Shown piece after piece: positions 1 through 63,788 of a DNA stretch of 64,000 nt (its first letter is position 1; every line of letters begins with the position of its first letter). Under the pieces are notes generated by a model, which worked only from the letters and a program-made list of their open reading frames with translations, did no database searches and was not told where the DNA came from. The stretch is from Octopus vulgaris (taxonomy: Eukaryota). The stretch is from the NCBI GenBank assembly GCA_951406725.2, contig OX597821.1, positions 868,001 to 932,000 of the forward strand, in the 5' to 3' direction. The position numbers were made by a program, and so were the translations under genes.

Positions 1-180
1 TGCCAAGCTGTATCGACCTTTGTCTTTCCCTTGGATAACACTGGTGGCGTAGAGAGGGAGGCTGGTATGCATGGGCGACTGCTGGTCTTCCATAAACAAC
101 CTTGCCCGGACTTGTGTCTAGGAGGGTAACTTTCTAGGTGCAATCCCATGGTCATTCATGACCGAAGGGGTCTTTACCCT
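1..180 (+). mobile_element. 3' part of a tRNA/CORE-type SINE (tail ...GAAGGGGGTCTTTACCCT)
   Basis: The same sequence recurs reverse-complemented at 3036-3180, continuing into a tRNA-like head at 3715-3905, and partially at ~39586-39650 and ~45647-45710. Confidence 0.7.
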
Positions 181-1910
<1,730 letters not shown>

Positions 1911-2139
1911 GGGAAGAAATAGGAGGGATCAACAATTTTCGGCTGATTTCACTGGCAATAGTCTGAGAAAATGGACAGAATATATGGATCGGTCAGTTCA
2001 AATTTATATTTGGACAGAAAAAGACATTTCCATTTTCGTCCCTGTTATTGATTGAAAGGAGAGAATGGGTGAAATGTTCTTTTTACATATACCACATGTG
2101 GGACAAACAAACATTATATCTGTGAAGGTGGTTGGGGTG

Positions 2140-2174
<35 letters not shown>

Positions 2175-2283
2175 ATGGAGAGGGAAGCTGTCTGTATGCA
2201 TATATATATAGTCTTATAAATATATGAGCATATAAATGCAAAAATACACACACAAATACAATCTATCTATCTATCTATCTATG

Positions 2284-2318
<35 letters not shown>

Positions 2319-3035
2319 ATGCATACACACATCTGTATGTATAAGTATATATATATAAACATATTGTATATAATACACACACAAATGCACCCATATATTG
2401 AGTTCTATTTCAATTTGTTTTGCCAAACACTCATACATTAGAAAGCCTAATATAAACTTGATGTAGTTAGGTTATAGTTTTTACCACCTACACTATGGAA
2501 AGTAAACAAATGTGAACACACTTTATTATTCTTTCAGTATCAGAAAATAAATGAGATTATCCTAACAGGTTTCATGGCTGGTTGACCACTCTTTGGACAC
2601 CAAGCAGAAATCACCCTATGGCCTACGAAGAGAACTTTATAGTAGCAGCTATTTAAATTAATCACAAACTAGTAATTCAGCTGAAAATGGCTAGATCAAT
2701 TTATATATTGTACATTTACTGGTGAAGTGATAAAACACTTGATTGTATGTGCAAGGAGAATATGTAAGATAAATATATGATTGTACACACACATGCAAAT
2801 GCAAAGATATGTACACAAGTGCATACATACACATGCAGATATATGCATACAGAAAAATACATACACACAATTGCTGTGATGCATATATATACTCCTCAAT
2901 CAGTTGACAACTGTTTTCCATGCTGGCATGGGTTGGACGGTTTGACAGGAGCTGGGAAGACAGAGGTCTGTATCAGGCTCCAGTGTCTGCTTTGGCATGG
3001 TTTCTATGTTTGGATGCCTTTCGTAACATATAATA

Positions 3036-3905
3036 GGGTGAAGACCCCCTTCAGTCATGAATGACCATAAGATTGCACCTAGAAAGTTCCCCTCTGAGGC
3101 ACAAATCTAGGCAAGGTTGCTTATGGAAGACCAGCAGTTGCTCATGCATACCACTCTCCCCTCTCCACACCACTGATGTCTTAAGCTATCAGATGTGGCG
3201 TACTGGCAGTTTTTTTTCTTTTCCAATGTGCCAGGGACCAGTAATATCCCTTAGTAATATTAATTTATACTAGAAACAATATATATATATATAATGAATG
3301 TAATGAAAAGTTGACAATTTTTTATCTTATATTTATTTTGTAAACATATAATTTTTTTTTTTTTTTACTCTAGTTACAAAACCCGAAACTTTTGGGGAAG
3401 GGGCCAGTTGATTATATTGACTCCAGTATGCAACTGGTGCTTAATCTATTGATCCCGAAAGGATGAAAGGCGAAGTCGACCTCAGTGGAATTTGAGCTCA
3501 GAAAGTAAAGACAGACGAAATACAGCTAAGCATTTTATAAACAAATAATACAATATTACATAAGCTGATAAGTTGTTTACTGCAGTGCATAAGGCAATAT
3601 TACTGAAATTATGCTATTGTCTTTTTCTTTTCTGGAAACTCACCACATACCAACAGCTGATGGCTCACGGGCCAGCACTGGTCTGCAGACCACTACTTTG
3701 AGTAGCACTGGTCTAAGGGAAAGGCAAAGGCCAATACAGCTTAGCACCAGTGATGTCGCAAGTCATTTCTACAGATGAGTGAACTGGTGCAATGTGAAAT
3801 AAAATGTCTTGCTCAAAAACACAACACATAACCCAGTCTGGGAATCAAACTCACTACCTCATGATTGTAAGCCCAACACTCTAACCACTGAGCCATTTAC
3901 CTTCA
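3036..3905 (-). mobile_element. tRNA/CORE-type SINE split by a ~530 bp nested insertion (hAT-like end plus a second SINE fragment)
   Basis: Head and core at 3715-3905 and tail at 3036-3180 join to match 1-180. The intervening DNA has a CTTTGAGTAGCACTG hAT-like end and a SINE-A fragment at ~3385-3535. Confidence 0.55.
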
Positions 3906-10614: not shown

Positions 10615-10636
10615 TATGTATATGTGTATATATATA

Positions 10637-11295
10637 GGTGCAGGTGTGGCTGAATGGTAAGAAGCTTGCTTACCAACCACATGGTTCCAGGTTCAGTCCC
10701 TCTGCGTGGCACCTTGAGCAAGTGTGTTCTACTATAGCCTCGGACCGACCAAAGCTTTGTGATTGGATTTGGCAGACATAAACTGAAGGAGCCCTGTCAT
10801 ATATACATGTATATATATCTGTGTGTGTGGGTGGGTGTGTGTCTTTATGTCTGTGTTTGTCCCCACATGCTTGACAACTGGTATTGGTGTATTAGGCGAG
10901 CTGGCAGAAACGTTAGCGTGCCGGACGAAATGCTGAGCGGTATTTCGTCTGCCGCTACGTTCTGAGTTCAAATTCCACCAAGGTTGACTTTGCCTTTCAT
11001 CCTTTCGGGGTCGATAAATTAAGTACCAGTTACGCACTGGGGTCGATGTAATCGACTTAATACCTATGGCTGTCCTTGTTTGTCCCCTCTATGTTTAGCC
11101 CCTTGTGGGTAATAAAGAAATAGAAATAGGTATTGGTGTATTAGCATCCCCATAGCTTTGTGGTTCAGCAAAAGAGACCAATAGAATAAGTACCAAGTTT
11201 AAAAATTAAGCATTGGGGTTGATTCATTCCACTAAAAATTGAAGGCAGTGCCCCAGCATGGCCTCAGTCTAATGACTGAAATAAGTAAAGAAAGA
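10637..11295 (+). mobile_element. SINE family B (tRNA head, CORE-like CCTTGRGCAAGTG, internal (TG)n), interrupted by a SINE-A copy
   Basis: A/B-box-like TGGCTGAATGG and GGTTCAGTCCC; homologous to 37580-38005, 49947-50275 and others. Confidence 0.8.
10896..11128 (+). mobile_element. SINE family A (GGCGAGCTGGCAGAAACG head; GCCTTTCATCCTTTCGGGGTCGATAAA central domain) with 16-bp TSD
   Basis: Flanked by GGTATTGGTGTATTAG at 10880-10895 and 11129-11144; near-identical to 62142-62372 and 22453-22660. Confidence 0.85.
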
Positions 11296-11318
11296 TATAT
11301 ATATATATTTATATATGT

Positions 11319-11680
11319 GAAGGTGCAGTGGACTTGAGGTCGTTGGATCGCAGTTTCGATTCCTAGACTGGGTGTTGTGAGTGTTTATTGAGTGAAAACA
11401 CCTAAAGCTCCACGAGGCTCTGGCAGGGGGTGGTGGCGAACCCTGCTGTACTCTTTCCCCACAACTTTCTCTCACTCTTTCTTCCTATTTCTGTTGTACC
11501 TTTATTTCAATGGGTCAGCCTTGTCACACACTGTAGCATGCTGAATCTCCCCGAGAACTATGTGAAGGGTACACGTGTCTGTAGAGTGCTCAGCCACTTA
11601 CACATTAATTTCATGAGCAGACTATTCTGTTGATCGGATCAACTGGAACCTTTGTCGTTGTAACCGACAGAGTGCCACAA
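11319..11680 (+). mobile_element. SINE family C (tRNA head), tail type a
   Basis: Shares GTTGTGAGTGTTTATTGAG...CAACTTTCTCTCACTCTTT with five other copies in the window; its 3' part is distinct. Confidence 0.7.
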
Positions 11681-57656: not shown

Positions 57657-57876
57657 GGCGGCGAGCTGGCAGAGTGGTTAGCACGCCGGGCGAAATGCTT
57701 AGCAGTATTTCGCTTGTCTTTACGTCCTTAGTTCAAATTCCGCTGAGGATCGACTTTGCCTTTCATCCTTTCAGGGTCGATAAATTAAGTACCAGTTGCA
57801 TACTGGAGTCGATCTAATCGACTGGATCCCTTTCCCCCCAAAATTTCGGGTCTTGTGCCAAGAGTAGATAAGAATA
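57657..57876 (+). mobile_element. SINE family A with alternative tail and 14-bp TSD
   Basis: TTGTGTAAAAGGAA at 57643-57656 and 57877-57890. Confidence 0.85.
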
Positions 57877-61735: not shown

Positions 61736-62141
61736 GTAAGTCTCTCCCCCTCATTCTCTCCTCTTTGCCACCGATGTTTATCCAAGACCGATGAGGTGGG
61801 CCGAAGTCGCTGAAAAGCAAAGCAGCAAAAACGTGGATTATTGGTGCATGGTAAAGCGGAAGCCCGTCTTCTTCCTCCTGCTTTAGTGCCGCCTTAAACC
61901 ACAAGGCACACTGGGCAGTCTCACGGGTCTAAAGGGCCCAATTCTAAATTACGTATGCTGTGATTTGCTGGTAATAGATAGACATTATAGGGGACTCGGT
62001 GCACTGGTATGCCTGGAGGACGATGGTGCTATAATGCTGCTAAAACAACATTGCTGTAAGGTCTACAGGTTAGGGGCATGTAATATTTGCTTTACTGGCA
62101 ACCCTCATACTACGCGACTGCGTGCGCAGAAGCGGTTTGAA

Positions 62142-62372
62142 GGCGGCGAGCTGGCAGAAACGTTAGCGCGCCGGACGAAATGCTTAGCGGTATTTCGTCT
62201 ACCATAACGTTCGGAGTTCAAATTCCGCCGAGGTCAACTTTGCCTTTCATCCTTTTGCGGTCGATAACTTAAGTACCAGTTACGCACTGGGGTCGATCTA
62301 ACCGACTTAATCCCTTTGTCTGTCCTTGTTTGTCCCCTCTATGTTTAGCCCCCTGTGGGCAATAAAGAAATA
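62142..62372 (+). mobile_element. SINE family A, full length, with 14-bp TSD
   Basis: AGAAGCGGTTTGAA at 62128-62141 and 62373-62386. Confidence 0.9.
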
Positions 62373-62633
62373 AGAAGCGGTTTGAATGCTAGAACTGAAT
62401 AAAAATCTGCTTATGTCTGTAGGCCAGGGCTTCTCAATCATTTTTCACGTATGGACCCTTTTAATAACTAGTTTATTGCAGTGGACCCTTATAGTCATTC
62501 GATGTTTAAAAACTATAAAACTAGTTTTATGAAAGTTTTATAAAATCCTATTTTGTTTTCCACGCATTAACTTGTGTAGGTTGAACTATGTATGATGCTA
62601 GAGAAAGAAACCCAGCTGTTTCTTGCAATACAT

Positions 62634-62938
62634 TTATTTTATTTATTTATGCACTTTTCAAGCCTAGCCAGGCTCATGGGCCCGGTTTCCCGGTTTCTGT
62701 GGCGCATGTGTCCCGCCCACCTAGCTGGACGGGAGGCCAGGCCATCGCAGTGTTACTTAAAAAACAGGAAGAAGAGTAAGAGAAAGTTGGGGCGAAAGTG
62801 TACAATAGGGGTCGCCACCACCTACTGCCGGAGCCTCGTGGAGCTTTAGGTGTTTTCGATCAATAAACACACACAACGCCCGGTCTGGGAATTGAAACCG
62901 CGATCCTCCGACCACGAGTCCGCTGCCATTGCGCCTCC
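62634..62938 (-). mobile_element. SINE family C (tail c) with 13-bp TSD, nested in a hAT MITE (62425-63097)
   Basis: TCTTGC(A/G)ATACAT at 62621-62633 and 62939-62951. Confidence 0.8.
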
Positions 62939-63788
62939 TCTTGCGATACATACCAATGCATTAATCTAAAGCAAACTTTTTTCAAGGGTCCTGAAAATAC
63001 TATATTGGGCCCCCAATTTACTATTTTGTAGCAAGGATCCCACCAAAATCTTATATGGATCTTTAGGGGCTATATGGACCCCGGTTAAGAACCACGGTCG
63101 TGGACCAATGAAACGGGGAAATGTCAATAGAACAAAAAACTATATAGAAACAGGAATAGATAGACAGATACACAGAGAAAGACAGATCACATGTATGGAC
63201 AGACTAACAGACAGATGTGCTGAAAGACCGATAGACAGACAGACAGACAGACAGGCAGAGAAATAGAATTTAGTCCGAGCCTCACTCGTTAAACTAAATT
63301 CTACCACAGGAATAATAGTTTACAGATTTCGCTTCCTAATTATAACATCTTTAGGTTGGTGAAGTATTTTGTATAAGATTTCATTTCAAAACAGATAGCT
63401 GACATATCTACCAGCACGCACACACACGCACGCACGTACACACACGCACGCACACACGCACGCACATACCCACCCTTCCATGTACCCAAACACATACACA
63501 CACACACGTTCTACAAGGAACATCGAATTTCAAGACACATGCCTGTGTACGTAGCGTGCGCTTACACAAACCAGTTTGCTTGTTTGCAAATCATTATCAT
63601 GTATGTATGTATGTATGTATGTATGTATGTATGTATGTATGTATGTATGTATGTATGTATGTATGTATGTATGTATGTGAATTGTTTGTCTTTATGCATT
63701 GTTATACATAAGTAAATCGGTCAAATATTAATTGAACAGTTGTTAAATATTTTTAAATACACTTTATTTTGTTTCTTTAAGAAAAACA

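What the first reader, a model, noticed from the sequence alone, without database searches (positions are those of the whole stretch)
62320..62372. Abundant SINE-A shares its 3' tail with the Tx1-like LINE (candidate SINE-LINE partnership)
Seen: the SINE tail CCTTGT---TTGTCCCCTCTATGTTTAGCCCCCTGTGGGCAATAAAGAAA (also ~11074-11120 and ~22610-22656) aligns with the LINE 3' end CCTTGTAATTTGTCCCATCTGTGTGCAGCCCTGTGTAGCCAATAAAGAAA (54467-54516; also ~35913-35962), colinear to the terminus. Two of these SINE copies have clean 14- and 16-bp TSDs. Established: many SINEs borrow the 3' end of the LINE that mobilises them, and Tx1-derived tails are much less commonly reported than L2, CR1 or RTE tails. Inference: a Tx1 lineage drives this SINE subfamily.
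Basis: partly seen in the sequence, partly recalled or inferred. Interest (0 to 1): 0.7.

Follow-up and report, generated by a model that had tools for sequence, protein, structure and literature searches.

The report
Octopus SINE carrying a Tx1-LINE tail
In what is likely an octopus genome, one subfamily of a short non-coding jumping repeat ends in nearly the same 42 bases as a longer L1/Tx1-type retrotransposon, so it likely borrows that lineage's copying enzyme, although the two sit at different kinds of insertion site.

Summary
The shared tail is real. Three SINE copies match two LINE 3' ends without gaps over the last 42 nt (32-34/42). No shuffle of 10,000 reached this in any of 6 pairs, and an end-anchored test without the terminal AATAAAGAAA gave the same result. 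TSDs of 14 and 16 bp are exact. The LINE belongs to the L1/Tx1 superclade; Tx1 itself is inferred, not shown by phylogeny.

Corrections: only 3 of 16 family hits carry this tail, and the 54467 'LINE' is a 67-nt stub. Both LINE ends abut (TATC)n, and a near-identical second copy of the locus holds the same microsatellite empty, whereas 0 of 3 SINEs lie in TATC. SINE-LINE tail divergence (19-24%) exceeds that within either family. A small hairpin is possible but shows no covariation.

Best reading: tail capture from a Tx1 lineage, with mobilisation by an ancestor or sister of this TATC-targeting family. SINE-LINE tail sharing is well known, but ten literature searches found no animal SINE with an L1/Tx1-derived tail. 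Repbase, Dfam and SINEBase sequences were unchecked.

The parts
62142..62372 (+). Full-length SINE copy with the LINE-like tail: tRNA-like head, body, tail
   Evidence: A-box-like motif at 62152 and B-box-like motif at 62214 (patterns recalled)
62329..62370 (+). 42-nt tail homologous to the LINE 3' end
   Evidence: 32/42 and 34/42 to the two LINE ends, 0 of 10,000 shuffles
62128..62141 (+). Left 14-bp target-site duplication (right copy 62373-62386)
   Evidence: exact
10896..11128 (+). Second SINE copy with the LINE-like tail (tail 11079-11120), nested in a copy of another SINE family
   Evidence: 16-bp exact TSD 10880-10895 / 11129-11144
22453..22658 (+). Third SINE copy with the LINE-like tail (tail 22615-22656); 25-nt body deletion, no TSD, followed directly by a truncated sister copy
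35166..35963 (+). 5'-truncated L1/Tx1-type LINE insertion inside a (TATC)n array
   Evidence: absent from the duplicate locus
35166..35214 (.). Perfect 22-nt fold-back inversion at the LINE 5' junction (arms 35166-35187 and 35193-35214)
   Evidence: pair I25, 100% complementary
35183..35563 (+). ORF2 C-terminal remnant (about 126 codons) with its stop
   Evidence: 67-75% identical to six proteins bearing zf-RVT, three of them also RT; tblastn to P0005 residues 788-912
35564..35963 (+). Putative LINE 3' UTR with an A24 run, pyrimidine tracts and terminal AATAAAGAAA
   Evidence: link to ORF2 seen in this one copy only
35921..35962 (+). LINE terminal 42 nt shared with the SINE
54451..54517 (+). 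67-nt stub of the same LINE 3' end, followed by (TATC)24
   Evidence: 63/67 identical to 35897-35963
42002..42069 (+). Empty site: the (TATC)17 stretch of the duplicate locus where the other copy holds the LINE
   Evidence: run-length comparison of both compound microsatellites; array coordinates
57657..57872 (+). Sister SINE with the same head and body but another tail; 17-bp TSD with one mismatch (comparison copy)
   Evidence: tail 16-17/42 to the LINE

Best explanation
One subfamily of a modular tRNA-like SINE ends in the last 42 nt of an L1/Tx1-type LINE's 3' end, likely captured by template switching, and is likely copied by the ORF2 protein of an ancestor or sister of the (TATC)n-associated LINE family seen here rather than by that exact family.

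Shown: the homology, its sharp upstream edge, other tails on the same SINE head and body, exact 14- and 16-bp TSDs, and the LINE's superclade and TATC placement.

Inferred from established non-LTR biology: Pol III transcribes the SINE from its A/B boxes; ORF2p binds the shared 3' segment (a predicted 4-bp hairpin with a UGU-containing loop, then AAUAAAGAAA); the APE endonuclease nicks the target; target-primed reverse transcription and a staggered second nick give the TSD. This would make the lineage a 'stringent' LINE that reads its 3' sequence instead of a poly(A) tail; neither element ends in poly(A).
For: 42-nt ungapped terminal match, 0 of 10,000 shuffles in 6 of 6 pairs. Length and identity fall within the 35-61 bp and 72-95% reported for bivalve SINE-LINE pairs (PMC11481361).

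The LINE is L1/Tx1 superclade. Its relatives carry EN + RT + zf-RVT. Among solved structures the best match is LINE-1 ORF2p (E 1e-72 for P0158, against 6e-29 for R2). Pointers to Tx1: 109 of 120 close relatives read DQ-x-KAFD in RT, where human L1 reads DAEKAFD; that this motif marks Tx1 is recalled. More distant relatives carry three CCHC knuckles. Microsatellite targeting is a Tx1 trait (Kibi, Koshi; PMC4494074). Gastropod L1-superfamily elements were classed as Tx1 (PMC11203168).

Tail swapping is visible: head and body are 83-90% alike across tail types, and the other tails match the LINE at only 12-18/42. A sister or ancestor is favoured because the SINE-LINE tail identity (32-34/42) is below the SINE-SINE (36-40/42) and LINE-LINE (38/42) values, and because the targets differ.
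Against: Only one LINE copy links the terminal segment to ORF2, and an A24 run 36 nt after the stop could be the true end. The tail hairpin is no better than shuffles (z -1.36 to +0.51 in 5 of 5) and has 0 of 11 pairs with two-sided change; one LINE copy breaks it. No sister Tx1 family with a closer tail was observed. No labelled Tx1 reference could be placed in a tree, and the PDB comparison held only L1 and R2 hits, so other clades were not tested there. Sample size is 3 SINEs and 2 LINE ends.
Confidence: 0.52

Rival explanations
1. The very (TATC)n-associated family mobilises the SINE. Its site choice would come from pairing of read-through (UAUC)n RNA with the nicked microsatellite, which the SINE RNA lacks, so the SINE inserts elsewhere.
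For: Both LINE ends run straight into (TATC)n with no poly(A). The LINE looks young (perfect 22-nt fold-back; filled and empty copies differ at 26 positions in 5,345). It is the only matching LINE end in the window.
Against: The tails differ by 19-24%, more than within either family. In crocodilians, SINEU shares the target preference of its inferred Tx1-Mar driver (PMC4494074). Tx1L endonuclease is reported as sequence-specific (title of a reference; paper not read).
Confidence: 0.17
2. The terminal 67 nt are not the ORF2 element's own 3' end. The LINE ends at the A24 run, and the rest is a 3'-transduced flank or a separate short element, so the tail donor's clade is unknown.
For: A24 run at 35599-35622; the second copy shares only the last 67 nt; none of 598 fetched proteins gave a meaningful match to the UTR (one hit at E 0.01).
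Against: No AATAAA precedes the A24 run, whereas the terminal segment ends with one. The whole 35166-35963 block is absent from the empty copy, so it arrived together. The second stub has the same end and the same TATC junction. The A and T tracts pair, and the UTR folds better than shuffles (z -3.3, 1 of 100), though homopolymers largely drive this.
Confidence: 0.13
3. The tail is a relic or moved the other way: the LINE took its end from the SINE, or the SINE gained the segment once but is copied by the same unknown LINE that serves its other tails through a shared small hairpin.
For: The LINE-like tail aligns in register with the tail of the 57.6k sister copy (22-23/42; 8-23 of 5,000 shuffles, post hoc, 1 of 7 tails). 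A 4-bp stem around a similar loop shows two-sided change at 3 of 4 pairs between the tail groups.
Against: The tail is far closer to the LINE (32-34/42) than to any sister tail (13-23/42). The LINE itself shows no significant match to those tails (155-3,422 of 5,000 shuffles). AATAAA suits a Pol II LINE end (established knowledge). The covariation rests on two groups and four pairs.
Confidence: 0.15
4. Chance or convergence of low-complexity pyrimidine-rich sequence ahead of a poly(A) signal.
For: Without the last 10 nt, the unanchored local test is only marginal for two pairs (294 and 331 of 10,000, test 2).
Against: Anchored test 0 of 10,000 in 6 of 6; the other AATAAA sites among 151 reach at most 15/32; the LINE-only profile gives E about 1e-5.
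Confidence: 0.03

Closest known systems
Stringent SINE/LINE pairs (UnaSINE/UnaL2, MIR/L2, turtle SINE/CR1, Bov-tA/Bov-B; bivalve SINEs with CR1, L2 and Nimb-type partners)
   Same: tRNA-like SINE ending in a short homologue of a LINE 3' UTR terminus; 42 nt at 76-81% lies within the 35-61 bp, 72-95% range of PMC11481361; tails are swapped on a common head and body.
   Different: The partner is L1/Tx1 superclade. No Tx1 partner appears in Table 1 of PMC3747384, the word Tx1 is absent from the main texts of PMC11481361, PMC5786205 and PMC3531059, and no covarying stem-loop is shown here.
ZmSINE2/ZmSINE3 with LINE1-1_ZM (maize) and SINEX-3_CR with L1-1_CR (Chlamydomonas)
   Same: SINEs with an L1-clade tail of about 50 nt (maize) or 80 nt (alga), read as stringent recognition (PMC3472496, PMC3747384).
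   Different: Those are plant and algal L1 lineages, and the maize pair shows compensatory stem changes. This one is animal, likely Tx1, and microsatellite-associated.
SINEU with Tx1-Mar (crocodilians; PMC4494074)
   Same: A SINE inferred to be mobilised by Tx1 LINEs.
   Different: SINEU has snRNA heads and poly(A) tails; SINEU-1 has no 3' similarity to any Repbase LINE; the link rests on shared targets. Here the tail is shared and the targets are not.
Microsatellite-targeting Tx1 families Kibi (TC)n, Koshi (TTC)n and crocodilian (TTCC)n/(TTTC)n families (as described in PMC4494074)
   Same: LINE inserted into a pre-existing short tandem repeat.
   Different: The target here is (TATC)n; I saw no Tx1 family with this target, but did not see Figure 3 or the supplement of PMC4494074, nor Kojima and Fujiwara 2004.
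Octopus SINEs OK, OR1, OR2 (Ohshima and Okada 1994; only OR2 and the citation appear, while OK and OR1 are recalled names)
   Same: tRNA-derived octopus SINEs; this family may be one of them.
   Different: Their sequences could not be seen, so identity is untested.

Membership tests
tRNA-derived SINE | Short (<700 bp), non-coding, interspersed in many copies | tested here: met
   About 230 nt; 16 non-LINE hits in 64 kb, two pairs of which are the duplicated segment
tRNA-derived SINE | [quoted passage not shown] | tested here: inconclusive
   Box-like motifs 51 nt apart in 3 of 4 copies tested (recalled patterns; the fourth missed the B pattern); ARAGORN 0 genes, Rfam 0 matches
tRNA-derived SINE | Target-site duplications | tested here: met
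   2 of 3 copies with this tail, exact 14 and 16 bp
tRNA-derived SINE | Transcription by RNA polymerase III | not testable with these tools
   no expression data
Stringent SINE/LINE pair | Shared 3'-terminal sequence beyond chance | tested here: met
Stringent SINE/LINE pair | Shared segment lies in the LINE's own 3' UTR | tested here: inconclusive
   Contiguous with ORF2 in one copy; internal A24 run; second copy lacks ORF2
Stringent SINE/LINE pair | Conserved 3' stem-loop with compensatory changes | tested here: inconclusive
   4-bp hairpin at this site in 4 of 5, shifted by one base between SINE and LINE; not better than shuffles; 0 of 11 pairs covary
Stringent SINE/LINE pair | Same target-site preference as the named partner | tested here: not met
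   LINE 2 of 2 at (TATC)n, SINE 0 of 3
Stringent SINE/LINE pair | Overlapping ages and tail-dependent trans-mobilisation | not testable with these tools
   needs the genome and a cell assay
L1/Tx1 superclade LINE | ORF2 with APE endonuclease, RT and C-terminal zf-RVT; closest to L1 ORF2p | tested here: met
   through relatives: P0005 (67% to the window remnant) and P0158 (44% to P0005)
Tx1 clade | RT phylogeny groups with named Tx1 families | not testable with these tools
   no named Tx1 reference among hits
Tx1 clade | ORF1 with CCHC zinc knuckles (recalled feature) | tested here: inconclusive
   three knuckles in 3 of 11 proteins inspected, all distant relatives reached through P0272 (30% to P0005); ORF1 of this family not seen
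Tx1 clade | Sequence-specific insertion into a repeated target | tested here: met
   2 of 2 ends abut (TATC)n, which covers 1.4% of the window (chance about 5e-5); empty site shows the array pre-existed for one copy. An element-borne (TATC)n tail is not excluded for the stub
Ceph-SINE | Ceph domain (CORE-like half plus RTE 5' UTR) | tested here: not met
   by eye, the consensus sequences printed in the supplement of PMC5786205 do not resemble the body; no alignment was run

The most novel reading that the evidence does not exclude
This is the first animal SINE with a captured L1/Tx1 tail, which makes this Tx1 lineage a stringent, 3'-structure-reading LINE. Its driver is a still-active (TATC)n-targeting family whose SINE passenger escapes the microsatellite target. 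That would show that site choice comes from RNA-target pairing and not from the endonuclease alone, and that one SINE body has hopped between LINE clades within the octopus genome.
Probability: 0.15. Interest if true: 0.78.

Novelty: new variant of a known kind. Interest (0 to 1): 0.52.

Why it matters
L1-clade LINEs are regarded as mostly 'relaxed' poly(A) readers: more than 800 families yielded three SINEs with L1 tails, all plant or algal (PMC3472496). A Tx1-tailed animal SINE would point to stringent 3' recognition on the animal side of the clade and give a defined 42-nt element for testing it. The mismatch between the LINE's (TATC)n sites and the SINE's unique sites offers a natural test of whether RNA pairing or the endonuclease sets target specificity. 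It also names a candidate driver for part of the large octopus SINE complement (11.6% of the O. vulgaris genome, with L1-Tx1 families among the recently active; PMC13282606).

Tried and rejected
Gapped extension of the homology upstream of -42: no gain in score. Significant or covarying tail stem-loop: not found. tRNA or Rfam identity of the head: none. Pfam on the 131-aa window fragment itself: 0 families, so clade evidence comes from relatives.

Naming the clade through annotated hits, cluster members and the ESM Atlas gave no Tx1 label. ZCCHC3 was not mentioned in PMC9004415. More tail copies in prokaryotic genome contigs: 0 matches; no related LINE loci. No further L1/Tx1 coding pieces in the window. 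UTR read-through among 598 fetched proteins: nothing meaningful.

My idea that the SINE body is the RTE-derived Ceph domain was rejected by eye. Motif searches for the body and tail in supplements gave no matching element. Supplements of PMC4494074 and PMC3531059 and the 2015 octopus genome paper were not available. The zero of search is uninformative, because the term '3 UTR' probably cannot match the printed prime sign.

Full report
Setting. The window is repeat-rich animal DNA. The host is inferred to be an octopus: the LINE fragment is 97% identical over 28% of its length to a UniRef protein of Octopus bimaculoides, and a close relative (P0005) is 68% identical to an Argonauta hians protein.

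The observation. They align without gaps over the last 42 nt at 32-34/42 in 6 of 6 pairs, and identity falls to background upstream. No dinucleotide shuffle of 10,000 reached the local score of the last 60 nt in any pair. With the terminal AATAAAGAAA removed, the anchored identity is 22-24/32, again 0 of 10,000 in 6 of 6. The unanchored version is weaker (1-331 of 10,000). Among 151 AATAAA sites, the best outside these elements reaches 13-15/32. A profile built from the two LINE ends alone finds the three SINE tails at E about 1e-5, with the next hit at 0.16. The proposed 3-nt gap and extra CCTTGT add no score. TSDs of 14 and 16 bp are exact, against 0 of 494 random flank pairs; the third copy has none.

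The SINE. It is about 230 nt, with A-box-like and B-box-like motifs 51 nt apart (recalled patterns) that enclose an 11-bp hairpin. ARAGORN and Rfam found nothing. BLAST gives 16 non-LINE hits in the window; 3 carry the LINE-like tail. Other copies share head and body (83-90%) but end differently, and seven such tails match the LINE at 12-18/42, no better than shuffles. An eighth, degenerate end (22870-22960) was aligned but left out of that count. The LINE-like tail therefore marks a subfamily made by tail exchange. The three copies differ by 10-12% in head and body. At the rate of 0.0036 per site per million years quoted in PMC13282606, that suggests very roughly 15 million years (inference).

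The LINE. 35166-35963 is a 5'-truncated insertion: about 126 codons of ORF2 C-terminus, a stop at 35563 and a 400-nt putative UTR. Six proteins match at 67-75%, all with zf-RVT and three also with RT. The exhaustive search found 215 relatives at E up to 0.001. Full-length relatives have endonuclease, RT and zf-RVT and match LINE-1 ORF2p far better than R2 among solved structures (no other clade appeared). That shows the L1/Tx1 superclade. Tx1 is inferred from four things: a DQ-x-KAFD motif in 109 of 120 close and 115 of 117 distant relatives (diagnostic value recalled); CCHC knuckles in distant relatives; microsatellite targeting; and the report that gastropod L1-superfamily elements are Tx1. 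The 54451-54517 copy is only the last 67 nt (63/67).

34504-41428 is repeated at 41529-47479 across a 100-N gap (26 mismatches in 5,345 columns), likely two haplotypes. The second copy has the same compound microsatellite with no LINE: its (TATC)17 stretch is split by the LINE in the first. So the array pre-existed, and the insertion is likely polymorphic. Precise loss by recombination between the TATC flanks, or misassembly, is not excluded. The 5' junction has a perfect 22-nt fold-back, consistent with a young insertion. Both LINE ends run into (TATC)n, which covers 1.4% of the window. None of the 3 SINEs does.

Mechanism. Shown: terminal homology with a sharp edge, alternative tails, TSDs, superclade, TATC placement. 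Inferred: capture of the LINE end by template switching, Pol III transcription, binding of the shared segment by ORF2p, and target-primed reverse transcription. In L2 LINEs, recognition of a 3' stem-loop is experimentally established (PMC4176376). Here a 4-bp hairpin can form in 4 of 5 tails, shifted by one base between SINE and LINE, but it does not beat shuffles and shows no two-sided change. SINE-LINE tail identity (32-34/42) is below SINE-SINE (36-40) and LINE-LINE (38), and the targets differ. I therefore favour an ancestor or sister family as the driver (0.52), over this same family with RNA-guided site choice (0.17), a relic or reversed transfer (0.15), a mis-assigned 3' end (0.13) or chance (0.03). 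One result against a clean picture: the LINE-like tail also aligns weakly and in register with one sister tail (22-23/42; 8-23 of 5,000), with two-sided change at 3 of 4 stem pairs between tail groups. This is post hoc and rests on two groups.

Comparison with print. PMC3472496 found three SINEs with L1 tails among more than 800 L1-clade families, in maize and Chlamydomonas. Table 1 of PMC3747384 lists no Tx1 partner. SINEU is tied to Tx1-Mar by shared targets, and SINEU-1 has no LINE-like 3' end. Passages on bivalve pairs name CR1, L2, Nimb and CR1-Zenon, and Tx1 does not occur in that text. Ten searches listed no animal SINE with a Tx1-derived tail and no (TATC)n-targeting Tx1. The library lacks most subscription papers, one search is uninformative, and Repbase, Dfam and SINEBase sequences were unchecked, so the pair may already be recorded there.

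What I saw of each paper. PMC3472496: part 1 of 3. PMC3747384: passages and the tables section, part 1 of 2. PMC4494074: parts 2-4 of 5, supplement unavailable. PMC5786205: abstract, passages, parts 2-3 of 5, supplement passages. PMC4824008: part 2 of 6, supplement part 1 of 4 and a motif search. PMC13282606: parts 1-2 of 3, supplement listed but not read. PMC4758252 and PMC11481361: passages and supplement motif searches (one file of the former not searched). PMC8967140, PMC10294476, PMC9004415, PMC5804259, PMC4176376, PMC11203168, PMC3531059: passages only. Not seen: Albertin 2015, Ohshima and Okada 1994, Kojima and Fujiwara 2004. The unseen supplements of PMC4494074 (Tx1 targets) and PMC3531059 (SINE sequences) bear directly on the novelty claims.

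Verdict. Observation confirmed; interpretation partly supported. A new variant of a known kind, interest 0.52.

Noticed in passing
window 34504-41428 and 41529-47479: Near-identical tandem copies across a 100-N gap, likely two haplotypes assembled in series; one holds the LINE and the other the empty microsatellite.
   Followed up: yes
window 35166-35214: Perfect 22-nt fold-back inversion with a 5-nt loop at the LINE 5' truncation point, likely cDNA self-priming.
   Followed up: partly
window 32463-34650 (+), partial second copy from 41529: Broken Helitron Rep/PIF1 helicase remnant (Helitron_like_N, PIF1, Pif1_2B) directly upstream of the compound microsatellite.
   Followed up: partly
window 57657-57872, 3355-3535 (-), 26690-26857 (-), 28775-29103 (-), 22659-22806, 38770-38840: Same SINE body with other tail types whose partner LINE is unknown; the 26.7k copy ends in an (AAT)n run, and several share a small stem around a UGU-containing loop.
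   Followed up: partly
window 62174-62199: An 11-bp hairpin between the A- and B-box-like motifs of the SINE head; 2 of its pairs show two-sided change among 4 copies.
   Followed up: partly
window 10630-11300, 27435-27855 (-), 37573-38011, 49940-50280: A second abundant SINE-like family sharing a segment of about 45 nt with the body of this SINE; the 10.9k copy is nested in it.
   Followed up: partly
window 35599-35889: The A24 run and the long T tract of the LINE UTR are complementary, and an internal hairpin lies between them; the UTR folds at z -3.3.
   Followed up: partly
window 37002-37092 and 37248-37338 (duplicate 43048-43384): 91-bp inverted repeat pair at 94.5% identity, possibly a MITE.
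   Followed up: no
window 11325-11492, 29470-29770, 39900-40065, 62642-62941: A further dispersed repeat family of about 300 bp, unclassified.
   Followed up: no
window 62142, 22453, 57657, 17074: Four SINE 5' ends are directly preceded by AA, which in two cases is also the end of the TSD; this may reflect a second-nick preference or 5' microhomology.
   Followed up: no
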